Source: a virus | DNA: 42,879 bases | IMG/VR virus record: IMGVR_UViG_3300045988_132779 | Coordinates: 1-42,879 of that record | Reading direction: 5' to 3' (one strand) | Shown: in pieces, positions 1 to 31,667 of the stretch | How positions within the stretch are numbered: position 1 is the stretch's first letter | Layout of the letters: each line of letters opens with the position of its first letter | Notes under the pieces: model-generated | Told to the model about the DNA's origin: nothing | The model's database searches: none | The model's input: only the letters and a program-made list of their open reading frames with translations | Translations under genes and position numbers: made by a program

Positions 1-88
1 CCTTTTTGTCTTTGCCGAACCCGCCTTCGATACCGGTGAATTCAATGCGGCCGATATGCTCACGGCCAATTACTTTTAATTCGTTCAT
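1..88 (-). CDS. Duplicated 5' fragment of the antirepressor gene (artefact of the terminal overlap)
   Basis: The reverse strand encodes MNELKVIGREHIGRIEFTGIEGGFGKDKK, the same as the N-terminus of 42014..42826. GGAGG lies 7 nt upstream of the ATG. Confidence 0.7.
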   Translation of the reverse strand, partial: MNELKVIGREHIGRIEFTGIEGGFGKDKK

Positions 89-105
89 CACTATGCCTCC
101 TTGTA

Positions 106-122
106 AATCTCATCGCGAGATA
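106..122. promoter_or_regulatory. Operator-like palindrome O3 (AATCTCATCGCGAGATA) between the cro stop and the antirepressor RBS
   Basis: Shares the consensus wwTCTCAynnyGAGATA with the sites at 393..409 and 427..443. Confidence 0.55.
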
Positions 123-362
123 TTAGTCTTCAAAAAAAAGAGCTCCAACAGGAATTTCCATCGCTCTGGCAATGATTAACATTTCATAATCATTAAATGG
201 ATACACTCCTTTTTCTTTTAGCTCATATTGCCTACGGCTAAGGCCAACCATTGCGCCAACATATGATGTTGTCCAACGGCGCCGATTGCGCTCTCCACGC
301 AGTTTGTCTTTAGGTTTTAGAAATTCTACACGTAAGTCCTGTTTAGTTGCTCCAGCTAGCAT
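123..362 (-). CDS. Cro-like XRE-family HTH regulator (79 aa)
   Basis: HTH_3-like segment TSYVGAMVGLSRRQYELKEKG. Divergent from the cI-like gene. RBS GAGGTG lies 7 nt before the ATG. Confidence 0.75.
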   Translation of the reverse strand: MLAGATKQDLRVEFLKPKDKLRGERNRRRWTTSYVGAMVGLSRRQYELKEKGVYPFNDYEMLIIARAMEIPVGALFFED

Positions 363-390
363 TTGATGTCACCTCGCTTTCAACATCATT

Positions 391-419
391 AGTATCTCAC
401 GTTGAGATATAGAATGCAA
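391..419 (-). promoter_or_regulatory. Putative early lytic promoter (TTGCAT-17-GATACT) for cro
   Basis: On the minus strand, -35 TTGCAT is at 419..414 and -10 GATACT at 396..391, with a 17-nt spacer that contains operator O1. Confidence 0.45.
393..409. promoter_or_regulatory. Operator O1, perfect palindrome TATCTCA-CGT-TGAGATA
   Basis: 7-bp perfect inverted repeat inside the cI/cro divergent region. Confidence 0.65.
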
Positions 420-426
420 CAACAAA

Positions 427-443
427 TTTCTCATTGTGAGATA
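427..443. promoter_or_regulatory. Operator O2 (TTTCTCATTGTGAGATA)
   Basis: Imperfect copy of O1, immediately upstream of the cI -35 element. Confidence 0.55.
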
Positions 444-449
444 TTTTTC

Positions 450-477
450 TTGAATATACCCGCGTATGTGATATTAT
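450..477 (+). promoter_or_regulatory. Putative cI maintenance promoter (TTGAAT-16-TATTAT)
   Basis: Sigma-A-like hexamers located 23 nt upstream of the cI RBS. Confidence 0.45.
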
Positions 478-499
478 TAACACATAAGAGGTGGACAAA

Positions 500-1333
500 A
501 TGCCAAACAAATCTGCAAATATTCTGGGCCCCGTAATTAAGGAACTAAGGAAGCAAAAGAAAATGACTCAGGCTGACCTTAGCAGAATTACCGGCATCGC
601 CCAAAACACTATTTCAAATCACGAAAATCAGAATAGAGCGCTTGATGAAAATTCCATTATTAAATACGCCAAGGCGCTGGGGGTAACTCCCCAAGCTCTA
701 TATGATGCAGCTATTGTTAAGAAATCAATTGACACTAAATCAATGGTGATCGATGTACGACAAACCGCAATTGACGAAATTAACGATGTTGTTAAAGAAC
801 TAGTAACGCCTCGCGTGCAAAAAGTTGCTTCATATGCCGAAAAGCAGCTCAATGAGCAGCAGAACCCCGATAACGTTGTCAGCTTAGATGAAGCGCGTGT
901 AGAACGTAATCTTGATGAGCCAGCGTTCAATGTTGAGGTTGATGGTATTGTGGCCGCTGGATATGGCGCCTTTAATGATGATCGCTATGAACCAATGGAC
1001 ACAGTTAAGATTCCAGACAGTGCCATTCCGTCTCACTACGATTACTGCTTTAAAGTTGTCGGTGACAGTATGTCTCCCTACTACGAGGATGGCGAATTTG
1101 TCTTTGTTCAGAAAACACAAGATGTTACTAACGGTATGATCGCTGTAGTTGATATTGATGACATGACATTCATTAAAAAGCTGATATTCGAACAAGATCG
1201 TTTGTGTCTTCGTTCATTGAATGATGATGTGGACGAAAAAACGGGTGAACGTATCTACCCAGACTTCTATGCTGATGAAACTGATACCATTGATGTTATC
1301 GGTAAGGTCGTTGGATCATATGCATTTAAATAA
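500..1333 (+). CDS. CI-like repressor: N-terminal XRE HTH plus C-terminal LexA/S24 autopeptidase domain
   Basis: HTH segment MTQADLSRITGIAQNTISNHEN. LexA-like cleavage motif VAAG, Ser motif GDSMSP, Lys in FIKKL. The ATG at 500 is preferred (GAGGTG 6 nt upstream) over the GTG at 491. Confidence 0.9.
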   Translation: MPNKSANILGPVIKELRKQKKMTQADLSRITGIAQNTISNHENQNRALDENSIIKYAKALGVTPQALYDAAIVKKSIDTKSMVIDVRQTAIDEINDVVKELVTPRVQKVASYAEKQLNEQQNPDNVVSLDEARVERNLDEPAFNVEVDGIVAAGYGAFNDDRYEPMDTVKIPDSAIPSHYDYCFKVVGDSMSPYYEDGEFVFVQKTQDVTNGMIAVVDIDDMTFIKKLIFEQDRLCLRSLNDDVDEKTGERIYPDFYADETDTIDVIGKVVGSYAFK

Positions 1334-1395
1334 ATAGCTAACCTACGTCCAAGCCCTGATCGACGTTAAAAGCTGGATTTTTATGGAGGGGAATA

Positions 1396-2073
1396 ATGAA
1401 ACTACTTGTCTTAATTGCCTTTTTGGGATCGCTCCTATTGGCTGCAATATTTGGCACATTGTCTATAGTTCAAAGAAAGGATCCGAGAAAACTAAAGCGG
1501 AACCTTATTATTACCGCATTGTCGGCGGTAGCATTTATTGCAATCTTTTTTTGGATTGGCACCTACTCGGGAGAAAGCAAGAGGTCAGCTGCGTCTAGTT
1601 CGTCTTCAAAAGCTGAATCGTCAAAGGTCGAGTCGTCACAAGATGATGATGACAGTTACGAAGACACTGATAGCGATGACTCTGATGATGAAGAATCATC
1701 AAGCACAGAAACATTCAACGCTGCTGACTACAACACTGGGATCACTTATGAACAGTTGGCACGGACTCCGGACGACTACAAGGGTAAGAACATCACTTTA
1801 ACAGGCGAAGTTATTCAAGTCGTTGAGGGTGACGATGAAACTGATTTGCGTGTTGCAGTTGATGGTAATTATGACAATGTAATTATGGTCGGTTATGATC
1901 CAGATATTATGAACGGCTCTCGCATTCTAGAAAATGACAAGATCACCTTCTATGCTGAAAGCTTGGGTACCACCACTTACAAATCTACCATAGGTGGCAA
2001 AATCACAGTTCCATTGGCTTTGGCCAAGAAGATAGATGACGCCGGAACCGCTCCCGACGACTATGGTGATTAG
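1396..2073 (+). CDS. Membrane-anchored protein (2 N-terminal TM helices, S/D/E-rich linker, ~120-aa C-terminal globular domain); candidate superinfection-exclusion or lysogenic-conversion protein
   Basis: Hydrophobic segments LLVLIAFLGSLLLAAIFGTL and IITALSAVAFIAIFFWIGTY. Acidic low-complexity linker. RBS GGAGG 6 nt upstream. Sits between cI and int. Confidence 0.7.
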   Translation: MKLLVLIAFLGSLLLAAIFGTLSIVQRKDPRKLKRNLIITALSAVAFIAIFFWIGTYSGESKRSAASSSSSKAESSKVESSQDDDDSYEDTDSDDSDDEESSSTETFNAADYNTGITYEQLARTPDDYKGKNITLTGEVIQVVEGDDETDLRVAVDGNYDNVIMVGYDPDIMNGSRILENDKITFYAESLGTTTYKSTIGGKITVPLALAKKIDDAGTAPDDYGD

Positions 2074-2157
2074 TCCCTTCCCCCACGCAAGCGGCGTCTC
2101 CGTGCAAGCCGGAGAGTGGGGCTTGTATCGCATACCAAATAAAGGATGTGAGTCATC

Positions 2158-2265
2158 ATGCTAAAAAAGATAGTTGCCATCTTACTCATTGTTTTGTTGG
2201 CTGGCGCAACAACCGCTTGCGCTAGTGACCAAGACGATGATCAAAATGTCGATCAGTTTAACTGA
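2158..2265 (+). CDS. 35-aa putative mini-lipoprotein (MLKKIVAILLIVLLAGATTAC/ASDQDDDQNVDQFN)
   Basis: Not in the ORF track (<60 aa). Has a K-rich n-region, a hydrophobic core and a lipobox-like TTAC. Intergenic position in the lysogeny arm. Confidence 0.45.
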   Translation: MLKKIVAILLIVLLAGATTACASDQDDDQNVDQFN

Positions 2266-2313
2266 GCGTTGGCGGGATACAAAAGCTTGGTATTTAAGAT
2301 AGGAGACAGCAAA

Positions 2314-2694
2314 ATGGATCGGCCAATAATTAATGCCATCTACTTCACGGAGAAAGACAAATCCAAACCGATGATGGTGCTCCCGTTAGATAGCACTAAA
2401 CTTCACATCGATATTCACGTTCAAGTCATTAATTTCACTTTAGATAAGCATACGTTAACTTTGTCCGTAAGCGATCAGAACGGAAACGTTATGCTCGAAG
2501 CTAGCCAGCAACCCATGGACGCCTCTTCATTGAAGGCAAGAGGAACATATGGCATTGTTGATGCAACTCTTTTCGTTGTATTTGACAAATTAGAGCTTAA
2601 GGGAGTGAATCGGCTAAGGTTTGATATATCCTTCGATAATGATGCTAAGGCTACTGCATATCTGTTTGTTTCACGAGGTGACAAGAATGATTGA
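2314..2694 (+). CDS. Hypothetical 126-aa protein (lysogeny-arm moron)
   Basis: ATG at 2314 is preceded by AGGAGA 7 nt upstream. No TM helix or signal peptide. No motif recognised. Confidence 0.6.
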   Translation: MDRPIINAIYFTEKDKSKPMMVLPLDSTKLHIDIHVQVINFTLDKHTLTLSVSDQNGNVMLEASQQPMDASSLKARGTYGIVDATLFVVFDKLELKGVNRLRFDISFDNDAKATAYLFVSRGDKND

Positions 2695-2839
2695 TGCCGG
2701 GATTAGCAAAGTTATCTTTAGAACTGATACAGAGATAAAACGATCCTCTTCTATAAGGGCATTCATCAAGGGATATAGGATTACTACGGCAACGGGTAAA
2801 AGCAAAACAGAGTATAATAAAACCAAGGAGGCGGATAAC

Positions 2840-3097
2840 ATGACAAATGAAAATACCGTGACTCAAGATCAATTAAAGTTTGCAGAGCAAGACGCTAATC
2901 ACAAGCTTGATATTATCAACATAAAGATTGACGCACTAACAAAATCGGTTAATGCAATTTCAATCAAAGCTGACGGACTCGATGAACTAAAAACTACTAC
3001 TGCTGTTTTATCTGAAAAAGAGTCGACAACACGGGCTTTGGCATGGGCCATTGTTGTTGCCATTGTTGGAGGCCTCATTAAGCTGATTCTTTTTTAG
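2840..3097 (+). CDS. 85-aa coiled-coil protein with a C-terminal TM anchor (XhlA-like architecture)
   Basis: GGAGG lies 8 nt before the ATG. C-terminal segment ALAWAIVVAIVGGLIKLILF is hydrophobic. TATAAT at 2813..2818 upstream and a terminator downstream. Confidence 0.65.
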   Translation: MTNENTVTQDQLKFAEQDANHKLDIINIKIDALTKSVNAISIKADGLDELKTTTAVLSEKESTTRALAWAIVVAIVGGLIKLILF

Positions 3098-3117
3098 TCA
3101 AGGCAAGGTTCATTTCA

Positions 3118-3145
3118 GGCTCACAGCAACGTGGGCTTTTGTTTT
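3118..3145 (+). terminator. Rho-independent terminator
   Basis: GGCUCAC-AGCAAC-GUGGGCU hairpin (one G.U pair) followed by UUUUGUUUU. Confidence 0.65.
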
Positions 3146-3194
3146 CTCTAACTTATTTTTTCACAACTCATTCTCCTTATAGGAGGTATCATCT

Positions 3195-3458
3195 ATGAAA
3201 ACAATTACAGTAATCTCTTATAAGTTTGGCGAAAAAAGCTGGAAAAACTTCGAAGGAGAACCTATCAAAAAATATGAGCACTCAGTTCTCCTAGACATTT
3301 CAAACACCGAAGTCTTCAGTGATAAAGAAAAAGCAGAACTAAATTACAAGATCGTTGTCCCCTTTTCTAGAATTAGAGAGAAACGATTCATCAAAGATAT
3401 TCCACTCAGTAACGTAAACGAGGCGCTTAACAAGAAAAAAGCAAGTAGGAGAAAGTAA
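3195..3458 (+). CDS. Hypothetical 87-aa protein with a basic C-terminus
   Basis: GGAGG RBS (taggaggtatcatctATG). No recognisable motif. Confidence 0.6.
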   Translation: MKTITVISYKFGEKSWKNFEGEPIKKYEHSVLLDISNTEVFSDKEKAELNYKIVVPFSRIREKRFIKDIPLSNVNEALNKKKASRRK

Positions 3459-3565
3459 CGACAAAAAGCGCCTACCCAAGCGAATGGGTAGACGCCTAAC
3501 AGAACGTGACTGCATGGTTAGGTGCAATAGCACCCGTCTGTATTGTAGCACAAGGAGGTGTAAAT

Positions 3566-4693
3566 GTGGCCAGTATTAGTAAGCGTGGCAAAAAATGGCA
3601 ATATCGTGTCTCTTACAAGGATAATGATGGAACACGCAAGTATGTCAACAAGGGTGGCTTCCCCTCAAAAAAGGCTGCTGATATAGCGGCAATCGAAGTC
3701 GAACGTCAGCATAATCGCGGTGCAAATTTGGATCTTAACAAGATAACGTTAATCGACTACTGGGACAAATGGATTGAGCTGTACAAATCTGGTAAGCATT
3801 CTCGTATCACCGAAGCCCGGTATAAAACAATTCGTAAACAGTTATTAGCCTACTGGGGCGAAAGCCGTGAACTAAAATCAATTTCAAAATCAGACTGGCA
3901 GGCATTTATCAATGAGTTTGGCAAAAAAAGGGCTAAAGATACAGTCAGCAAATTGAATGGCTATGTTCGCTCAATGGCTGATTCTGCCGTAGATGACCAA
4001 ATAATATATACTAACTTCACTCATAACGTTGTCCTCACTGGTAATGAGGGCCAAGCAGGAATCATCAAATATTTGCAAGTAAAGGATTTGCGCAAGCTCG
4101 TCAATTACTGCCTAGAATTTGCAGACTACGAGCATATTGCTTACTACATCATCGCAACCGGGGCACTGACCGGAGCTAGGTATTCTGAAGTTCTTGGGCT
4201 CACGTGGGATCATGTTGATCTTAAAAAGCGCGTTGTACACATTACCAGAACGTGGGATCACAGATATGGGAGCGGCTTTGCTGCTACTAAGAACAAATCA
4301 AGTGTACGTGACATCGACATCACGAGAGAACTTGCAGACTTGCTTTTACGTCTCAAGAAAGAACAGCAAGAGGTCTACCTTGCTCAGGGATATCGTGATA
4401 GCAAACAACTATTATTTCGCAGCATACGGCATAACATGCTATCAAGCACGGCAATTAATAAGGATCTAAGGACGATTCAGAAGACTCTCGACATTTCCCC
4501 CGCGATTACTTTCCATGGGCTTAGACACACTCACGTTTCCTATTTGATTGCCAATCACGTTGACATTAACTATATTTCAAAAAGACTTGGGCATGCCAAT
4601 ACAATGATCACTCAAAAAGTCTACGCTCATCTTCTTGAAGATCAAAGAAAAGAGCAGGTATCCCAGACGCTACAAGCACTTTCTAGACTTTAG
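3566..4693 (+). CDS. int: Tyrosine recombinase / phage integrase
   Basis: Catalytic motifs TGARYSEVLGLTW (Arg), HGLRHTH (H-x-x-R) and LGHANTMITQKVYAHL (Tyr). GTG start at 3566 with AAGGAGG 7 nt upstream; the longer track ORF has no RBS. Confidence 0.92.
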   Translation: MASISKRGKKWQYRVSYKDNDGTRKYVNKGGFPSKKAADIAAIEVERQHNRGANLDLNKITLIDYWDKWIELYKSGKHSRITEARYKTIRKQLLAYWGESRELKSISKSDWQAFINEFGKKRAKDTVSKLNGYVRSMADSAVDDQIIYTNFTHNVVLTGNEGQAGIIKYLQVKDLRKLVNYCLEFADYEHIAYYIIATGALTGARYSEVLGLTWDHVDLKKRVVHITRTWDHRYGSGFAATKNKSSVRDIDITRELADLLLRLKKEQQEVYLAQGYRDSKQLLFRSIRHNMLSSTAINKDLRTIQKTLDISPAITFHGLRHTHVSYLIANHVDINYISKRLGHANTMITQKVYAHLLEDQRKEQVSQTLQALSRL

Positions 4694-4890
4694 CTTGTGC
4701 ACATTTTGTGCACCGGAGGAAAAAAACAACCGAAAATAAAAGGAAACAAAAATCCCGAAATGCCTTTATACAAGCATTTCGGGAAGCTATGGAAAGCAAC
4801 TAGAGACAATAAAACGGAGAGTAAGTGCGAAAATAAACGTATATACAATAGTATTAAACCACATTTTGTGCATATTTTGTGCACAAAAAT
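4694..4890. other. Probable attP region with integrase arm-type repeats
   Basis: Convergent intergenic region next to int. (A)TTTTGTGCA(C) occurs as direct repeats at 4695..4702, 4703..4713, 4863..4872 and 4874..4884, flanking ~150 bp. The core position is not determinable without the host attB. Confidence 0.55.
4754..4783 (-). terminator. Rho-independent terminator (minus orientation)
   Basis: Perfect 10-bp stem CCCGAAATGC/GCATTTCGGG with a 10-nt loop. On the minus strand it is followed by AUUUUUGUUUCCUUUU. Confidence 0.65.
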
Positions 4891-4920
4891 AAGCCTCCCG
4901 CCATTGCTGGTAGGAGGCTT
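4882..4920 (-). terminator. Rho-independent terminator of the protease operon
   Basis: 8-bp stem AAGCCTCC/GGAGGCTT. On the minus strand it is followed by AUUUUUGUG. Confidence 0.65.
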
Positions 4921-4938
4921 ACTAATAACACATATAGC

Positions 4939-5085
4939 CTAATATTGAACGATACGGACAACACATTCTTGTGCCGAACCTTGGTTTGTGGGTTCAGCGT
5001 TAGGTTGATTATATTGATTTAACTGTTCATTTGTTTTATTTACTTTATCGAAAAGGGCGTTGATTTGTTCTATTGTGTATGTCAT
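4939..5085 (-). CDS. Unannotated 48-aa Q/N-rich protein translationally coupled to the SDH protease gene
   Basis: MTYTIEQINALFDKVNKTNEQLNQYNQPNAEPTNQGSAQECVVRIVQY. Its ATG overlaps the protease stop (ATGA). GGAGGA lies 4 nt upstream. Below the 60-aa track cutoff. Confidence 0.55.
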   Translation of the reverse strand: MTYTIEQINALFDKVNKTNEQLNQYNQPNAEPTNQGSAQECVVRIVQY

Positions 5086-5990
5086 GGGTTCCTCCTACTT
5101 TGGTCACTGACAATATACGAAGATGATTTGCTTTCAATTAATTTTGAAACATTTGTCTGTTGCAAAGTAATCATAATGGAGTGGTGGAGACTCAAAACTG
5201 AATTTTGCAAGTTCTGATCGTCTTCGAGAGCATTAACTTTTAGACCGATTTCACGAGCCAAATCAATATTGAAGTGTCGAGCATGAGCCTTTGAACGAGT
5301 GTGTTCATTGAGCCTTTTCACTATAGCCTTTACCTTTTCATCTGAATGTGGGTCATCGGCGAACATAACAGACGAAAGCCAGCTTTCTATTAGCTCTCCC
5401 GATAATTGAACGGCATCTTGAGCGAACTTGACGTATGCGGCCGGATATTTTCCTAAAAGTAACGACCAATATTGAAGGTTGTTGGCGTTTTCTTGTAGAT
5501 CATGGTACGCTTCATCAAATTCAGAAATAATATTATAGGCAGGTAACCCCCCTATCTGAGGATCAACCGGTCCCAGGCTTGAATGCTTCCCCATCCAAAT
5601 CTTTTTAGAAGCACACGAAATCATAGTGCCTGCAGACATTGCCATGTGAGGCACGATAACCTCAATATTATCATAAAACATACTTCTAAGATATGAAACG
5701 ATTGATTCTGCAGCATTAGGATCTCCACCTGGTGTATGCAAAACTAAAGAAAGTCCCTTTTGGCGATCTAATCCATTGATGGAACTCATAAACCCTTCCA
5801 TGTCGCTATCATTGATATCAATCTGATTTTTTCGTCCTTGTTGCCAACCAGAGTAATAACAGATTATGGTTCTATTAGTTTGTTTTTCAAGGTCTTCGAG
5901 ATATTTATGCCTAAGAGAGTCTAATCGAGACGGATAAGACTTAAACTCATCGAAAATCGATGACCAACTACCACCGCCTTGATGCTGCAT
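5082..5990 (-). CDS. SDH-family (ClpP/SppA-fold) serine protease, 302 aa
   Basis: Motifs LVLHTPGGDPNAAESI, VPHMAMSAGTMI and LGPVDPQIGG are typical of the serine dehydrogenase proteinase family (PF01972-like). ATG at 5990 with GGGGGGA 7 nt upstream; the 35-aa upstream extension has no RBS. Confidence 0.75.
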   Translation of the reverse strand: MQHQGGGSWSSIFDEFKSYPSRLDSLRHKYLEDLEKQTNRTIICYYSGWQQGRKNQIDINDSDMEGFMSSINGLDRQKGLSLVLHTPGGDPNAAESIVSYLRSMFYDNIEVIVPHMAMSAGTMISCASKKIWMGKHSSLGPVDPQIGGLPAYNIISEFDEAYHDLQENANNLQYWSLLLGKYPAAYVKFAQDAVQLSGELIESWLSSVMFADDPHSDEKVKAIVKRLNEHTRSKAHARHFNIDLAREIGLKVNALEDDQNLQNSVLSLHHSIMITLQQTNVSKLIESKSSSYIVSDQSRRNP

Positions 5991-6180
5991 TGCTTCATCC
6001 CCCCATGTTAATCTATAAGCTTCATGTGATGTGTACGTTTTCCAATCAAATTTGTCATGCACCCATCGCCTACATATTACCAGTGGCAATAACAATATTC
6101 AATTAAAACTGATTAAAACAAGTTAAAACATATTTAAAAAGTAAAAAATTGCAGTGCATTCTTGACAATTAATTTACAAC

Positions 6181-27833: not shown

Positions 27834-28370
27834 TTACACCGCCAACTCAAAAGAGAAGCCACGGTTGTGTTTGAGCTTGCCACGAAGGCACTCGGATACA
27901 TGGCTCTGGTTTAGTCCAAGAAGCTCCGAGGCTTTCTTTGCGCTACCAAAAAAATAGTGATGTCCTGAGCTGGTCACTACATAGACTGGACACTCGTTCG
28001 CTTTCGCTACGCGCTTGTTGCGGGTACCGTACATGTTGTTATAAAGTGCTGAGCACCATTCAAGATTTGATAACACATTGTTTGTCTTGTTTTCGTCTTT
28101 GTGGTTGACCTGCGGAAAATTGTCGGGGTTATCCAAGAACGCCGTAGCCACGAGACGGTGGATAAGCTTATATTCAATGTCTCCGTCTCGACATAGAGCA
28201 ATCTTACGATACCCCCGGCCGCTTGAGCCACCAACGAGCACCGTTCCTTTTATGCGGTGCCCTTGTGCGTCTTCGCGATCAAGGCTTCTTACTCTTCCCA
28301 TATTGCTAACTTGGTAGATGCCTTCAAATCCTTCAATGTCTTTCCAAATCTCATTCTCTTTTTTAAACAT
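27834..28370 (-). CDS. HNH homing endonuclease (NUMOD4 + HNH_3 + C-terminal HTH)
   Basis: NUMOD4 motif WKDIEGFEGIYQVSNMGRVRS. HNH_3 motif HRLVATAFLDNPDNFPQVNHKDENKTNNVLSNLEW. Overlaps the upstream gene by 8 nt. Confidence 0.85.
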   Translation of the reverse strand: MFKKENEIWKDIEGFEGIYQVSNMGRVRSLDREDAQGHRIKGTVLVGGSSGRGYRKIALCRDGDIEYKLIHRLVATAFLDNPDNFPQVNHKDENKTNNVLSNLEWCSALYNNMYGTRNKRVAKANECPVYVVTSSGHHYFFGSAKKASELLGLNQSHVSECLRGKLKHNRGFSFELAV

Positions 28371-29511
28371 AGTAAATCGCCCTCGTATCATGGTCAGAAT
28401 ATTCAATTAGTTCAAATGTCTTATGAGCAACAACTCCGAGATCATCTGTCCACTTATCCGTAGGTTTTCTCGTAGACATCTGCCTTTGAACGAATCCACC
28501 TAAATCCTTGCTCATTTCACTGTGCATGTGACCCGTTATCAATTCGCGGTTCTGTGCCGTGCCTAACATGAAGCCGAACTCATCGAGGTATTTTGCAAGG
28601 TAGTTGTTCTTACCTTTATCACCATGAGTGGCGCCAATGAAGTTATGGCCTAACATTGTGCCTTTGTAATGCTTCAGTGATATATCCCAAGTGATGTTCG
28701 GCTGGTTGCTGTAGGCACGTTTCAATAGACGCGCAAACATATATCCAACTGACGGGTCGTGATTACCTGGTGCATACATGACCTCACACTCATTGGCATT
28801 CTTAATAATCGCTTCAATCAGTGTCTCGAAGTATTGTTCCATTTCGTTCACAGTCTCGCCTAGGTCAGTTGTTTCGAGCTGTGTGCCCTTTGCTGTGGTT
28901 GAGTTGATATTGTCCACGTGAGCAAGATCGCCGCCCAGAATGAGCAATATTTTGGCGTAGTGGCCGCGTTGAATGATTTCTAGTTGCCGTTTAAGAGATT
29001 CCGCATAGACGTCGAATGTGTGACCGTTGAAATGCGTGTCAAATGCAGGAATGACCAGATAGCGATCTGATTCCACAAAAATAGGAGCCTTAGCTTGGTA
29101 TGGCTCCTTGTGTGTGATGATGTCATTCATCAATGATTCGTATTGTTCTGCTTCGACTAACGGCCTAATTTGTATCTTGCTTTGATACAACGTTGCTTCA
29201 GGCGTTTGCTTCCAGAAGTTGCTTGTAGCACGTACAAGCTCCCACTTGGTGTAATCATACCCGTGAGCTTCCAGAACCTCTCTAGGCGTCATTTTGTGGC
29301 CCCTGACAACCTTTAGAATGGTTTCACTGGACTGCGTACCGTCTGAATCGTATTCATTCTTCAGTGGCTTCTGAAATTCGATACCAAGCCTTTTCGCTTT
29401 ACCTTGAAGCGCATCATAGCTAATTCCGAGCTTGTCGGCCGTTTCTCGTCTAGTAAAGCCTTCAGAGGCGAGCTTCCTAATGTCACCGATCTGTTCATCT
29501 GTCCATTGCAT
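28363..29511 (-). CDS. Fusion protein: N-terminal HTH domain + calcineurin-like metallophosphoesterase
   Basis: HTH segment FTRRETADKLGISYDALQGKAKRLG. Phosphoesterase motifs PAFDTHFNG (DxH), LGGDLAH (GDxxH), PGNHD (GNHD) and TGHMH (GHxH). Confidence 0.8.
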   Translation of the reverse strand: MQWTDEQIGDIRKLASEGFTRRETADKLGISYDALQGKAKRLGIEFQKPLKNEYDSDGTQSSETILKVVRGHKMTPREVLEAHGYDYTKWELVRATSNFWKQTPEATLYQSKIQIRPLVEAEQYESLMNDIITHKEPYQAKAPIFVESDRYLVIPAFDTHFNGHTFDVYAESLKRQLEIIQRGHYAKILLILGGDLAHVDNINSTTAKGTQLETTDLGETVNEMEQYFETLIEAIIKNANECEVMYAPGNHDPSVGYMFARLLKRAYSNQPNITWDISLKHYKGTMLGHNFIGATHGDKGKNNYLAKYLDEFGFMLGTAQNRELITGHMHSEMSKDLGGFVQRQMSTRKPTDKWTDDLGVVAHKTFELIEYSDHDTRAIYYV

Positions 29512-29538
29512 CTACTCGCCTCCTAAAATATAATGTCC

Positions 29539-29564
29539 GTGAGCAGTTTGATGACGCTGCTCAC
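29539..29564. other. Hairpin GTGAGCAG-10 nt-CTGCTCAC in the leader of the HTH-phosphoesterase gene
   Basis: Perfect 8-bp stem. The same 8-mer pair recurs at 29774..29817. Confidence 0.5.
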
Positions 29565-29568
29565 ATTC

Positions 29569-29679
29569 TCATGAAGAACTTCCCGAGTTCTTAAGCCCTC
29601 GGATTAGGCCCCGAAAGCTTTTTTGTTGCTTAAAAAATTTCGATGAGTTAGAATTAAATTGTTCCCAACAGATACTCAT
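29569..29679 (-). CDS. Possible 36-aa basic peptide (MSICWEQFNSNSSKFFKQQKSFRGLIRGLKNSGSSS)
   Basis: AAGGAG lies 5 nt before the ATG. Otherwise unsupported, and it sits in a structured intergenic region. Confidence 0.3.
   Translation of the reverse strand: MSICWEQFNSNSSKFFKQQKSFRGLIRGLKNSGSSS
29626..29654 (+). promoter_or_regulatory. Plus-strand sigma-A-type promoter TTGCTT-17-TAGAAT (antisense to all neighbouring genes)
   Basis: Hexamers at 29626..29631 and 29649..29654 with an exact 17-nt spacer. Confidence 0.5.
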
Positions 29680-29738
29680 TTTCACTCCTTTGTAATACCC
29701 TTTCTTTAGGCTCTCGGCCCCCAACCGAGGGCTATTTT
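29661..29738 (+). ncRNA. Candidate antisense sRNA 1 (~75 nt), ending at a + strand hairpin/U-tract
   Basis: Starts downstream of the promoter above. The hairpin 29709..29733 (GGCUCUCGG/CCGAGGGCU) contains G.U pairs that become A.C mismatches on the minus-strand RNA. Followed by AUUUU. Confidence 0.4.
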
Positions 29739-29758
29739 AGTATCTTCTATAAGGAATG

Positions 29759-29767
29759 TGCTAATAT
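29759..29767 (+). promoter_or_regulatory. Plus-strand extended -10 promoter element (TGcTAATAT)
   Basis: TG at 29759-60 and TAATAT at 29762..29767. No good -35 element. Confidence 0.4.
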
Positions 29768-29773
29768 ATATAT

Positions 29774-29879
29774 GTGAGCAGTGGCCTTTCTCCTCCAAGT
29801 CAACCGCTGCTGCTCACACAAGTATTCCGTTTTTTCATTCTTTTGGCCCTTGGACTGGTCTCTGAGGGCCTTTTTGTTG
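29774..29879 (+). ncRNA. Candidate sRNA 2 (~105 nt): 5' hairpin with a CUCCUCC loop, U-rich linker, strong terminator
   Basis: 5' stem GUGAGCAG/CUGCUCAC (29774..29817). The loop contains CCUUUCUCCUCCAAG. The terminator GGCCCUUGGA-CUGGUC-UCUGAGGGCC (29845..29870) is followed by UUUUUGUUG. Its two G.U pairs exist only in the + strand RNA. Confidence 0.45.
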
Positions 29880-29880
29880 C

Positions 29881-29914
29881 ACAAAAATAGCACCTCACCG
29901 TTTGGCGGAGTGCT
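29881..29914 (-). terminator. Rho-independent terminator of the 286-aa orphan gene
   Basis: On the minus-strand RNA: AGCACUCCGCC-AAAC-GGUGAGGUGCU (10 of 11 positions pair, including G.U) followed by AUUUUUGU. Confidence 0.6.
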
Positions 29915-29945
29915 TTAGTAAATAAAAAGATGCCAAAGCGTCATA

Positions 29946-30806
29946 TTAGCTCTCTTGGTTTGTAGCACTAGATTTCGAAACGGCTGCCTTAAGCATATTC
30001 CCAGCATCGGTCGGACGTTCAGCATAAATTAACTCTGAAGGATTATTGGGATTAGCGTATGGTGGATTCAGCGTTCCCGAAATAAATTCAGCTAACTTAT
30101 TTGATTCTAAATCAACGATTGCCATCTGGATGCTTGTCTTCTCAATGTTAGAAAAAACTGGCACTTTGCTAAATGCGGTTGCTACCCATCCAGTATTGTC
30201 TCCCTGCACTCTACCATCTACAGCAATGAATGCTTTTGGTCCTGGAACTAACGGCCAATGGTCTGAATTCCGAAGCAGAGTTAGAGCTAGCGGAGAACTT
30301 CTGTCTATTAAATTCAAAATGCTCTTGTTCTTAGAAAAAGTGCTTCCCCAATCTTTTTCATTTGCAAGATTACCCAGATAATCAGACATAATATCCAACA
30401 TATCATCATCTGATGGAGCATCTGACAGTAGGGAGACTATTTTCGAATAGATACTCAGTCCGTACGGATTTGTGAGGAGAGAACTCAACCTGTGAAGGCC
30501 CTGCTCTTGATCATCGGTCTTTTGTAGATATTCTGCCAAAAGCAAAGTCTTCTTCATGTCATCCAAACGGTCTTTTAAATGATCCCCCGTATCCACAAGA
30601 TCAAGGATCAGATCTCCCCATTTGCCGTTTAAGACGTCTACCGCCAGCTGCTTTCCTTTCGACTTGGCAGTATCGACCACTGCTGACCTCACATCCTTAC
30701 TATCAAGCTTTTTCTGCTCTATTCTCTTATCCAAGCTCATTTTCTCAGCATGCAAAAGATATTCTGGATGCTCAATCATGGCCCGAATTTCCGCTTTCTT
30801 GTCCAT
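29946..30806 (-). CDS. Orphan 286-aa cytoplasmic protein (moron between ArpU and the late-region leader); function unknown
   Basis: Clear ORF with GAGGTGA 6 nt before the ATG. Charged helical N-terminal half and a beta-rich C-terminal half. Has its own terminator. No motif I can name with certainty. Confidence 0.7.
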   Translation of the reverse strand: MDKKAEIRAMIEHPEYLLHAEKMSLDKRIEQKKLDSKDVRSAVVDTAKSKGKQLAVDVLNGKWGDLILDLVDTGDHLKDRLDDMKKTLLLAEYLQKTDDQEQGLHRLSSLLTNPYGLSIYSKIVSLLSDAPSDDDMLDIMSDYLGNLANEKDWGSTFSKNKSILNLIDRSSPLALTLLRNSDHWPLVPGPKAFIAVDGRVQGDNTGWVATAFSKVPVFSNIEKTSIQMAIVDLESNKLAEFISGTLNPPYANPNNPSELIYAERPTDAGNMLKAAVSKSSATNQES

Positions 30807-30926
30807 TTCGTATCACCTCACAAAAATAGTACCCCAGCATGAACTGGAATACTACATTGAGGTGATTAAGTGAGCACTGCGCAGCCGTTTTCCGCCGGCC
30901 AATCTGGTGCACGTTTGATAGCGCAA

Positions 30927-30991
30927 TGTGGCATGCGGGAATCGAACCCGCCTGACTATCACGGTCAGTCCTCATTGCCACGCCTTGCCAC
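30927..30991 (-). other. Non-canonical tRNA-like element (acceptor + T-arm + one extra arm; no D-arm, no variable region)
   Basis: The minus strand reads GTGGCAA-GGC-GTGGCAA-TGAGGA-CTGAC-CGTGATA-GTCAG-GCGGG-TTCGATT-CCCGC-ATGCCAC-A. The T-arm with the GTTCGATTC loop is perfect. A 6-bp acceptor pairing is possible with either GTGGCAA copy. Confidence 0.5.
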
Positions 30992-31090: not shown

Positions 31091-31519
31091 TCACAAAGGT
31101 CTCATCTCGATTTCAACCAATGGACAAATCTCGGCGAATGCAATTAGCGCTTCTCGTTTTGTTCGATAATACTGGGCTTTTGATAAAAAAAGCTTGTCCA
31201 TTATTTGCTTGTCACTATATCGTTTGGTTAAGTAAGAGCTTGTTAGTATAATCCGATGATTCTCTGATTCCAGAGATTCGATAGCGCCTTCACAGCACGC
31301 TATATAGTACAGCTCGTCAGCGTGCGATACGAGCTTGTCCTCGGCTTTATTTCCATAGCTGGGTGACTTGGGCATGCCGTCCATCACGGGGCTTCTGAGC
31401 GCTATTTTGGTGCGTTGAGCGAGCCGCTTGTGATGCCAGTAGTTCCCCAAGACCTCTTTGGCGTTTTCAATCGTTTTGTCATGATCAATTGGGCTAAAAT
31501 ATCTCGTTGCTCGCACCAC
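31091..31519 (-). CDS. ArpU-family late transcriptional regulator
   Basis: LRSPVMDGMPKSPSYGNKAEDKL ... IILTSSYLTKRYSDKQIMDKLFLSKAQYYRTKREALIAFAE matches the ArpU family pattern. The GTG at 31519 (AAGGAG 8 nt upstream) is preferred over the GTG at 31528, which overlaps the SD. Confidence 0.8.
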   Translation of the reverse strand: MVRATRYFSPIDHDKTIENAKEVLGNYWHHKRLAQRTKIALRSPVMDGMPKSPSYGNKAEDKLVSHADELYYIACCEGAIESLESENHRIILTSSYLTKRYSDKQIMDKLFLSKAQYYRTKREALIAFAEICPLVEIEMRPL

Positions 31520-31667
31520 TGCGTCCACTCCTTATGGTATAATTTGTCTGGGCTTGTAGGATAAGCGTGCCGTGATGGTGCGCTTTTGTTATACTGTTTT
31601 CGGAGGCATTTCAATATTATAAAATCAATTAAAAATGTTGTTGTCTACAGTGCCTCCAGCGTGCCCC

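What the first reader, a model, noticed from the sequence alone, without database searches (positions are those of the whole stretch)
29759..29879. Second plus-strand sRNA-like unit with an anti-Shine-Dalgarno loop and a strong strand-specific terminator
An extended -10 element (TGcTAATAT) is followed 7 nt later by a hairpin, GUGAGCAG...CUGCUCAC. Its 28-nt loop exposes CCUUUCUCCUCCAAG, a CU-rich anti-SD-like sequence complementary to the GGAGGAG(A)AA-type ribosome-binding sites used throughout this phage. Next comes a U-rich stretch (CCGUUUUUUCAUUCUUUU), then a 10-bp terminator stem (29845-29870) followed by UUUUUGUUG. The terminator's two wobble pairs form only in the + strand RNA. There is no + strand ORF, so this ~105-nt unit looks like a regulatory RNA. 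It could be a cis-antisense to the late leader or a trans-acting translational repressor.
Basis: seen in the sequence. Interest (0 to 1): 0.68.

Follow-up and report, generated by a model that had tools for sequence, protein, structure and literature searches.

The report
Candidate phage-borne small RNA gene
A roughly 105-base stretch of a Lacticaseibacillus temperate phage has the conserved, strand-specific signals of a small non-coding RNA gene and is one of several related tandem units in a swap-prone island, but its expression and targets are untested.

Summary
The described features are all present: an extended -10 element (29757-29767), a 5' hairpin (29774-29817), a U-rich linker and an intrinsic terminator (29845-29879). 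All are on the + strand, opposite to every lytic gene and in the direction of the lysogeny genes.

The unit is conserved in 12 phage records, 2 plasmids, 57 IMG/VR contigs and 22 metagenome contigs, all Lacticaseibacillus where the source is named. Across 24 variants, 97.5% of stem cells pair on the + strand against 75.8% on the - strand. The -10 and the terminator are the best-conserved parts. There is no coding signal and no Rfam match.

It is one member of a paralogous family of small + strand units (promoter, 5' hairpin, pyrimidine-rich single strand, terminator). These sit in tandem in a mosaic island next to the phage exonuclease gene. In relatives the island also holds a csbD moron.

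My best reading is a moron-type small RNA made in lysogens that pairs through CU-rich unpaired segments, much like Listeria LhrC. This is unproven.

No convincing target was found in the window.

It is a new member of a known kind, of moderate interest.

The parts
29757..29767 (+). Promoter-like element of unit 2: TGTG-C-TAATAT (TRTG motif plus extended -10). There is no good -35.
   Evidence: Sequence. 8 of 11 columns are invariant in 45 island variants, while the 6-nt discriminator just downstream has 1 of 6 invariant. Variants read TGTGCTATTAT.
29774..29817 (+). 5' hairpin starting at the predicted transcription start: 12-bp stem (29774-29785 with 29806-29817) and 20-nt loop (29786-29805).
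   Evidence: RNAfold. 95.5% of cells pair across 24 variants on the + strand, against 82.3% on the - strand.
29786..29805 (+). Loop CUUUCUCCUCCAAGUCAACC. The CU-rich tract is variable; the core UCCAAGUCA (29794-29802) is invariant.
   Evidence: Alignment A1 invariant columns 22-30. The paralogue's loop is UUUGCUUCCCCAAAUCGAUC.
29818..29844 (+). Single-stranded pyrimidine/U-rich linker ACACAAGUAUUCCGUUUUUUCAUUCUUUU.
   Evidence: Unpaired in the MFE and centroid structures. A linker-based scan and a terminator-based scan of IMG/VR recover essentially the same contigs.
29845..29879 (+). Intrinsic terminator: 10-bp stem (29845-29854 with 29861-29870), loop CUGGUC, then UUUUUGUUG.
   Evidence: 100% of cells pair on the + strand against 67.9% on the - strand. 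21 of 24 columns are invariant.
29876..29881 (+). TTGCAC directly after the T-run. In relatives this hexamer is the -35 of the next cassette (the csbD promoter). It is vestigial here.
   Evidence: L002 and L011 read TTGCAC-17-TATGATAAT, then SD, then csbD. In the window no -10 follows.
29880..29914 (-). Convergent - strand intrinsic terminator after the 286-aa gene: hairpin 29889-29914, then AUUUUUGUG at 29888-29880. It sits back to back with the unit-2 terminator.
   Evidence: Minus-strand sequence. This segment is conserved even in phages that lack unit 2, such as A2 and iLp84.
29506..29630 (+). Unit 1, a paralogue: promoter TTGCAT-17-TATAAT (29506-29534) overlapping the SD and start codon of the 382-aa gene on the other strand; hairpin 29539-29564; weak terminator 29594-29619 plus T-run.
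   Evidence: The unit-2 covariance model hits 29538-29631 at 29.2 bits, E about 1e-3.
29626..29741 (+). Possible third unit (U1b): TTGCTT-17-TAGAAT (29626-29654), an unstructured CU-rich RNA containing UUUUCACUCCUUUG, and terminator 29709-29733 plus a U-run.
   Evidence: The same terminator closes the unit-2 paralogue in phage P7.1. Weak model hit, E about 1.3. The promoter is inferred from sequence only.

Best explanation
Unit 2 is a small non-coding RNA gene of the moron type.

Shown:
- It has a conserved extended -10 element, a hairpin and a terminator, all specific to the + strand.
- It is non-coding.
- It belongs to a family of paralogous small units arranged in tandem.
- These units sit in a mosaic, recombination-prone island between the early/ArpU region and the exonuclease/HNH/terminase genes of Lacticaseibacillus temperate phages.
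- They are oriented like the lysogeny genes and opposite to all lytic genes.

Inferred:
- RNA polymerase with the housekeeping sigma factor starts at about 29772-29775 and stops at about 29875-29879.
- This gives an RNA of about 105 nt whose 5' end is locked in a hairpin, which would protect it from 5'-end-dependent decay.
- The RNA is made in lysogens.
- It acts in trans by pairing its unpaired pyrimidine-rich segments (the loop CUCCUCCAAGUCA and the U/C-rich linker) with purine-rich regions around ribosome-binding sites of host or phage mRNAs, lowering translation or stability.
- This is the mode described for CU/C-rich-seed sRNAs of Firmicutes, such as LhrC.

The targets are unknown.
For: - Conservation: the unit is present in 12 phage records and 2 plasmids, 57 IMG/VR contigs and 22 metagenome contigs. 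There are 24 distinct 110-nt variants without a single indel.
- Strand specificity: 97.5% of stem cells pair on the + strand against 75.8% on the - strand. The substitutions are G-C to G-U, U-G to U-A to C-G, and C-G to U-G.
- Element-wise conservation: terminator 21/24 invariant, TRTG/-10 8/11, discriminator 1/6, and 48/150 in the adjacent exonuclease coding sequence.
- Non-coding: variable columns split 10/7/10 by codon phase (assigned by hand from the alignment), and there is no SD or ATG.
- Autonomy: the same unit is followed by three different contexts. These are another sRNA-like unit, a csbD gene with its own promoter, or directly the convergent terminator. It also sits in an IS-flanked segment of plasmid pMGB0734-1.
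- Family: the covariance model finds a paralogue at 62-64 bits, plus unit 1 and iLp84-type units at 27-36 bits. With paralogues included, 6 pairs change on both sides and 0 of 500 shuffles reach the covariation score. That alignment was fitted to the model, so it leans towards the structure.
- Shared architecture: five of the six related units folded adopt 5' hairpin, pyrimidine-rich single strand, terminator, with z from -2.2 to -5.0; U1b shows only the terminator (z -1.6).
- SD complementarity: the loop is more SD-complementary than composition-matched shuffles, p about 0.015.
- Precedent: LhrC sRNAs have the same layout and bind SD regions through redundant CU-rich sites without needing Hfq (PMC4132741).
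Against: - There are no transcript data of any kind, and no paper mentions these units.
- Within unit 2 alone the covariation measures do not exceed shuffles, because the sequences are closely related. There is only one two-sided change, and it passes through a wobble intermediate.
- There is no good -35.
- No significant target exists in the window. The 15-mer complement has 3 matches at 3 or fewer mismatches against 1.0 expected. The 12-mer has 6 against 3.3.
- Pairing with the csbD and exonuclease leaders is no better than for shuffles.
- The CU tract of the loop is not strictly conserved (CUCCUCC, CUCUUCC, CUUCUCC).
- Host genomes could not be searched for targets.
Confidence: 0.55

Rival explanations
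1. The unit acts in cis as an antisense or transcriptional-interference module. The act of + strand transcription, and the resulting RNAs that are perfectly complementary to any - strand transcript crossing the island, damp leaky expression of the exonuclease/HNH/terminase (late) genes in lysogens. The RNA sequence matters only for stability and termination.
For: - All flanking genes are on the - strand, and the 382-aa gene has no obvious promoter of its own, so its mRNA probably traverses the island.
- Promoter P1 of unit 1 overlaps that gene's SD and start codon.
- The + and - strand terminators are back to back at 29845-29914.
- The promoter and terminator are the best-conserved parts, and cassette content is highly diverse among phages.
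Against: - The loop core UCCAAGUCA is invariant, and hairpin pairing is maintained by + strand-compatible substitutions. Pure interference would not need this.
- The island persists on an IS-flanked plasmid segment where the exonuclease gene is truncated, and in L012 next to different genes.
- Phages such as A2 and J-1 lack the units entirely.
Confidence: 0.22
2. The unit is a functionless relic: promoter and terminator debris left by repeated insertion and deletion of moron cassettes such as csbD, carried along by recombination.
For: - In the window no gene follows the unit.
- The TTGCAC after the T-run is a vestigial -35.
- The island is mosaic, and its breakpoints fall at the shared terminator ends.
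Against: - The unit is intact, without indels, in about 90 loci and in three downstream contexts.
- The -10 and terminator are more conserved than the adjacent coding sequence.
- Paralogues keep the same architecture despite about 30% divergence.
Confidence: 0.1
3. The unit encodes a small protein, either the 38-aa + strand ORF 29774-29890 with a hydrophobic tail or the 48-aa - strand ORF 29747-29893, possibly a type I toxin.
For: ORFs exist in both directions. The + strand frame stays open in the divergent copies L011 and L012.
Against: - There is no SD and no conserved ATG.
- The GTG would be the first transcribed base.
- Variable columns by codon phase are 10/7/10 (assigned by hand from the alignment).
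- The hydrophobic stretch is simply the translated terminator.
- The neighbouring 36-aa - strand ORF also lacks third-position bias (17/24/20) and has frameshifted C-termini.
Confidence: 0.03
4. The unit is a protein-binding decoy RNA, for example an RNA anti-CRISPR mimicking host crRNA or tracrRNA as described for rAcrIIA1, or a mimic of the 16S rRNA 3' tail.
For: - Phage-encoded guide-mimic RNAs of about 111 nt with their own promoter exist (preprint 10.64898/2026.06.03.729762).
- The hosts carry II-A, I-E and I-C CRISPR systems (PMC7156538).
- The loop contains CCUUUCU and CCUCC, both of which occur in the 16S tail (own knowledge of the Lactobacillus 16S 3' end).
Against: Local alignment of the four host repeat types, on both strands, with six island versions is no better than shuffled repeats. 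tracrRNA sequences beyond the anti-repeat were not available to test.
Confidence: 0.05
5. The unit is a structured element of the - strand mRNA leader, such as an SD-like GGAGGAGAAAGG sequestered in a hairpin.
For: The 8-bp outer stem is a perfect palindrome, so it forms on both strands. The - strand shows an SD-like purine run.
Against: - The - strand fold is not better than shuffles (z = -1.0).
- Only 75.8% of cells pair on the - strand, and the terminator stem has two fixed mismatches there.
- No start codon follows the SD-like run.
Confidence: 0.03

Closest known systems
Listeria monocytogenes LhrC1-5 multicopy sRNAs (PMC4132741)
   Same: - RNAs of about 100-110 nt with stem-loop A, a single-stranded stretch and a terminator.
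- Several homologous copies, each with its own promoter and terminator.
- Redundant CU-rich motifs in the loop and the single-stranded region that bind SD regions.
- Works without Hfq.
   Different: - No sequence or Rfam similarity.
- LhrC is chromosomal and LisRK-controlled, whereas these units are on phages and plasmids with constitutive-looking promoters.
- The motif here is CUCCUCC / UCCAAGUCA rather than UCCC.
- Targets and expression are untested here.
Prophage- and island-encoded sRNAs: S. aureus SprD and SprX; E. coli DicF; EHEC AgvB and AsxR (PMC4104026; partly own knowledge)
   Same: Small RNA genes carried as accessory cargo of temperate phages, with their own promoter and terminator, expressed from the prophage and acting on host mRNAs or sRNAs.
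   Different: - Unrelated sequences.
- The Gram-negative examples depend on Hfq, which Lactobacillales largely lack (own knowledge).
- None is described as a tandem array of exchangeable paralogous cassettes.
Phage morons (own knowledge: autonomous promoter-gene-terminator cassettes inserted between phage genes)
   Same: - Autonomous promoter and terminator.
- Orientation opposite to the lytic genes.
- Present or absent among otherwise related phages.
- Neighbour of a classic protein moron, csbD.
   Different: The cargo is a non-coding RNA. Cassettes share a junction in which the T-run is followed by TTGC, which serves as the -35 of the next cassette.
RNA anti-CRISPRs such as rAcrIIA1 (preprint 10.64898/2026.06.03.729762)
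   Same: A phage intergenic small RNA of about 111 nt with its own promoter.
   Different: No similarity to host CRISPR repeats was found.

Membership tests
Any curated Rfam family (including LhrC, RsaE/RoxS, tracrRNA, type I antitoxin RNAs) | A covariance-model match at or above the family's gathering score. | tested here: not met
   0 matches in the whole window at gathering thresholds. In 29450-29980 at E up to 10, only chance-level terminator matches appear, the best being mmgR/suhB at 18.1 bits against a gathering score of 41.
Intrinsic (Rho-independent) terminator | A GC-rich stem-loop followed at once by a U-run on the transcribed strand. | tested here: met
   10-bp stem with 6 G-C pairs, 6-nt loop, then TTTTTGTTG. 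100% of cells pair across 24 variants, with wobble pairs valid only on the + strand.
Housekeeping-sigma promoter with extended -10 (TRTGnTATAAT) | TG at -15/-14 and a -10 hexamer with A2 and T6. Activity must be shown experimentally. | tested here: inconclusive
   The sequence TGTG-C-TAATAT, or TATTAT in variants, is conserved (8 of 11 invariant). There is no recognisable -35, and activity cannot be tested with these tools.
Trans-acting base-pairing sRNA | A discrete, stable transcript. | not testable with these tools
   No RNA data are available, and no publication was found.
Trans-acting base-pairing sRNA | Non-coding. | tested here: met
   No SD or ATG. Variable columns by codon phase are 10/7/10 (assigned by hand from the alignment).
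Trans-acting base-pairing sRNA | A conserved unpaired seed with complementary targets. | tested here: inconclusive
   UCCAAGUCA is invariant and unpaired. No significant complementary site exists in the phage. Host genomes were not searchable.
Moron | An autonomous promoter and terminator, variable presence among related phages, and insertion between conserved phage genes. | tested here: met
   Searches show the unit absent in A2, iLp84 and J-1 and present in R23.9, C3.1, BH1 and P7.1. The boundaries are at the SD of the exonuclease gene and at the - strand terminator.
Type I toxin-antitoxin locus | A small hydrophobic toxin ORF with an SD, overlapped by or convergent with an antisense RNA. 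| tested here: not met
   The only SD-bearing small ORF (29569-29679, - strand) is hydrophilic and basic, shows no third-position bias, and has frameshifted ends. The + strand ORFs lack an SD.
RNA anti-CRISPR (repeat or guide mimic) | Sequence similarity to the host CRISPR repeat or anti-repeat. | tested here: not met
   The II-A, II-A(Z11), I-E and I-C repeats compared with six island versions score no better than shuffles.

The most novel reading that the evidence does not exclude
The island may be an exchangeable array of regulatory-RNA cassettes. Each cassette has a promoter, a 5' hairpin, a pyrimidine-rich seed and a terminator. Each ends in a shared junction (a T-run followed by TTGC) that also serves as the -35 of the next cassette. 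Homologous recombination at these junctions would shuffle sRNA genes and small stress genes such as csbD among Lacticaseibacillus phages and plasmids. The RNAs would then be lysogenic-conversion factors that retune translation initiation of host genes, or of rival phages, through anti-SD-like seeds.
Probability: 0.2. Interest if true: 0.7.

Novelty: new member of a known kind. Interest (0 to 1): 0.5.

Why it matters
Regulatory RNAs of lactobacilli and their phages are almost unexplored. Phage-encoded sRNAs are known mainly from enterobacteria and staphylococci.

If transcribed, this family would give a compact, testable example of RNA-based lysogenic conversion in industrial and probiotic Lacticaseibacillus strains. 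It would also show how sRNA genes are shuffled as cassettes between phages and plasmids.

In practical terms, these units are unannotated in all records examined. On the opposite strand they mimic Shine-Dalgarno sequences and small ORFs, which can mislead gene callers.

Tried and rejected
- **Rfam.** The whole window at gathering thresholds and the region at a permissive E-value gave nothing.
- **Genome-collection scan.** The pattern TCCAAGTCAN{20,35}TTTTTTCAT was too loose.
- **CRISPR-repeat mimicry.** No similarity was found.
- **Targets within the phage.**
  - The exact complement occurs only in cis.
  - The best loop hit is the RBS of the 979-aa tail gene (start 12244, -26.1 kcal/mol).
  - The best linker hit is the SD region of the adjacent small - strand ORF (14 bp including 2 G-U pairs, -20.8 kcal/mol).
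  - Neither stands out from the background, and the linker pairing is broken in the common C67 variants.
- **Neighbouring genes as targets.** The csbD and exonuclease leaders pair no better than shuffles.
- **Small-protein readings.** Both the unit-2 ORFs and the 36-aa - strand ORF were rejected on codon-phase and frameshift evidence (alignment).
- **A - strand promoter from the invariant loop core.** TTGACT on the - strand has no -10 at a workable spacing, and the paralogue lacks it.
- **Literature.** Four searches for these units or for Lacticaseibacillus phage sRNAs found nothing relevant.
- **More divergent homologues.** Viral and metagenome scans keyed on the terminator gave only the same variants.

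Full report
**Context**

The window is a temperate siphophage of the Lacticaseibacillus casei/paracasei/rhamnosus group. The 600 bases around the finding match 44 phage records, all Lactobacillus or Lacticaseibacillus, and best match phages R23.9 and R10.1 at 98.4% identity.

All lytic genes lie on the - strand. The + strand carries only a block at 491-4693, which I take to be the lysogeny module from its position and orientation; I did not check its genes by homology.

The finding sits in a 434-nt gap (29512-29945) between two - strand genes. One is a 286-aa gene (29946-30806). The other is a 382-aa gene (28363-29511) that other records annotate as 'DNA repair exonuclease'. Downstream of the 382-aa gene in the lytic direction are an ORF whose homologues in related phages are annotated HNH endonuclease and then the large structural ORFs. 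An ArpU-type regulator lies upstream at 31091-31528.

**Observation**

Four refinements follow.

- The -10 reads TGTG-C-TAATAT. This is the TRTG-type extended -10 typical of Gram-positive promoters (own knowledge).
- The hairpin is 12 bp with a 20-nt loop.
- The + strand folds significantly better than shuffles (z = -2.85), and the - strand does not (z = -1.0).
- Directly beyond the + strand terminator lies a - strand terminator for the 286-aa gene (hairpin 29889-29914, then AUUUUUGUG). Two terminators therefore face each other.

Two statements need correction.

- Short GTG-started + strand ORFs do exist, but they show no coding signal.
- The loop is not complementary to an RBS type 'used throughout this phage'. 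0 of 51 predicted starts contain GGAGGAG.

**Conservation and strand**

The unit occurs in the following collections:

| Collection | Loci with the unit |
|---|---|
| Phage records | 12 |
| L. paracasei plasmids | 2 |
| IMG/VR contigs | 57 |
| Metagenome contigs | 22 |

Several of the metagenome contigs are 200-360 kb long, which suggests chromosomal prophages.

The loci give 24 distinct 110-nt variants with no indel. On the + strand, 97.5% of stem cells form standard pairs (terminator 100%, hairpin 95.5%). On the - strand only 75.8% do.

The substitutions are the kind that RNA tolerates on one strand only: G-C to G-U, U-G to U-A to C-G, and C-G to U-G. Formal covariation within unit 2 does not exceed shuffles, because the sequences are close relatives. 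The strand asymmetry is the informative result.

Across 45 island variants the conservation is uneven:

| Element | Invariant columns |
|---|---|
| Terminator | 21/24 |
| TRTG/-10 | 8/11 |
| Discriminator | 1/6 |
| First 150 nt of the adjacent coding sequence | 48/150 |

Variable columns fall 10/7/10 across codon phases; I assigned these by hand from the invariant-column list of alignment A1. The unit is therefore non-coding.

**A family in a mosaic island**

The same unit is followed by one of three things:

- another small unit, as in R23.9: TGTG-T-TATACT, a hairpin with a CACCUC loop, and a terminator;
- a csbD gene with its own promoter and terminator plus a further small unit with an ACCCCC-rich linker, as in C3.1, BH1 and plasmid pMGB0734-1;
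- nothing, as in the window.

Each cassette ends in TTTTTTGTTGC. The TTGC(A/T) part serves as the -35 of the next promoter. Homology breakpoints between phages fall at these shared ends.

Other phages carry different units of the same design at the same place:

- iLp84 and JNU_P10 have different units.
- P7.1 has a clear paralogue of unit 2, driven by promoter P1 and closed by the terminator that the window has at 29709-29733.

A covariance model of unit 2 recovers this paralogue at 62-64 bits. It recovers window unit 1 (29538-29631) and the iLp84-type units at 27-36 bits. With paralogues included, six pairs change on both sides and no shuffle reaches the observed covariation. That alignment was fitted to the model, so the result leans towards the structure.

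Five of the six related units folded adopt 5' hairpin, pyrimidine-rich single strand, terminator, with z from -2.2 to -5.0; U1b shows only the terminator, at z -1.6.

The window therefore holds two or three such units:

- unit 1, from promoter TTGCAT-17-TATAAT, which overlaps the SD and start codon of the 382-aa gene on the other strand;
- a possible unit U1b (29626-29741);
- unit 2.

The 36-aa - strand ORF with a 'strong SD' between the units is probably a mirror image of the + strand CU-rich motif UUUUCACUCCUUUG. It has no third-position bias (17/24/20) and has frameshifted C-termini.

**Mechanism**

What is shown:

- autonomous promoter-like and terminator signals on the + strand;
- RNA-type structural constraint;
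- non-coding status;
- modular mobility, including onto an IS-flanked plasmid segment where the exonuclease gene is truncated.

What is inferred:

- an RNA of about 105 nt made in lysogens;
- pairing through unpaired pyrimidine-rich segments with purine-rich ribosome-binding regions.

Two observations support the inferred mode. First, the loop is more SD-complementary than composition-matched shuffles, with a mean longest match of 5.2 nt against 4.3 (p about 0.015), close to the true 16S tail at 5.6. Second, Listeria LhrC is a close precedent: multicopy, two stem-loops with a single-stranded stretch, redundant CU-rich sites binding SD regions, and no need for Hfq.

Four observations weigh against it.

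- No specific target appears in the phage.
- The csbD and exonuclease leaders pair no better than shuffles.
- The CU tract varies, while the invariant core is UCCAAGUCA.
- Host genomes could not be searched.

The main rival is a cis role. Late-direction transcripts probably have to cross the island, so convergent + strand transcription and perfectly complementary RNAs could silence leaky late expression. Conservation of the loop core and the plasmid copy argue that this is not the whole story, but it cannot be excluded.

The remaining readings are disfavoured: a relic, a small protein, a CRISPR-repeat mimic, and a - strand leader structure.

**Comparison, novelty and verdict**

There is no Rfam family match, and I found no publication on these units.

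In kind, this is a phage or moron-borne sRNA gene candidate with a Firmicutes-style CU-rich seed. That makes it a new member of a known kind. The tandem, exchangeable cassette organisation with a shared terminator/-35 junction is the less ordinary aspect.

Confidence that it is a real, discrete RNA gene is about 0.55-0.6. Confidence in the anti-SD trans mechanism is about 0.3. Interest is moderate (0.5), because everything functional still depends on transcript and target experiments.

Noticed in passing
window 29506-29630 (+): Unit 1, a paralogue of the finding. Its near-consensus promoter TTGCAT-17-TATAAT overlaps the SD and start codon of the 382-aa exonuclease-like gene on the opposite strand. 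Its hairpin has the same GUGAGCAG/CUGCUCAC stem. Its terminator is degenerate in this window, with two C·A mismatches.
   Followed up: partly
window 29626-29741 (+): A possible third small unit: TTGCTT-17-TAGAAT, an unstructured CU-rich RNA (UUUUCACUCCUUUG) and terminator 29709-29733. The same terminator closes the unit-2 paralogue in phage P7.1 (L008 1637-1740).
   Followed up: partly
window 29569-29679 (-): A 36-aa ORF with a strong-looking SD (AAAGGAGTGAAAATG). Across 61 loci it shows no third-position bias (17/24/20) and has frameshifted C-termini. It is probably a mirror-image artefact of a + strand CU-rich motif, though the N-terminal MSI(C/Y)WEQFN is conserved.
   Followed up: yes
window 29880-29914 (-) and about 29919-29940 (-): One good and one degenerate - strand intrinsic terminator after the 286-aa gene. 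The segment is conserved even in phages without the island (A2, iLp84, PLE3). In A2 it leaves almost no room for a promoter before the next gene. How late-direction transcription passes this point is unexplained.
   Followed up: partly
L002 1980-2432 (phage C3.1); L011 3150-3603 (plasmid pMGB0734-1): A csbD-family stress-protein moron with its own promoter and terminator, followed by another sRNA-like unit with linker ACUUACCCCCAUACAC. On the conjugative L. paracasei plasmid, the whole island plus a truncated exonuclease gene sits between IS30, IS3 and IS5 elements.
   Followed up: partly
window about 30926-30980 (-): A tRNA-like remnant with acceptor, anticodon-like arm and T-arm (GGCGGGTTCGATTCCCGC) but no D-arm. 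ARAGORN calls no tRNA, and Rfam gives only a 17-nt tmRNA T-arm match. Phage iLp84 has a tRNA-Ile at the equivalent place.
   Followed up: partly
L012 (plasmid pBF11, NZ_CP094948.1) 1-6151: A record deposited as a 35-kb 'plasmid' carries portal, TerL, HNH and ArpU genes together with the sRNA island. It is probably a phage-plasmid or an excised or misassigned prophage.
   Followed up: no
window 29768-29773 and homologues: The discriminator between the -10 and the hairpin is an (AT)n microsatellite. Its length varies among loci (6 or 8 nt), and it is replaced by GTAGTC or GTACGC in other variants. This could tune the start site or promoter strength.
   Followed up: no
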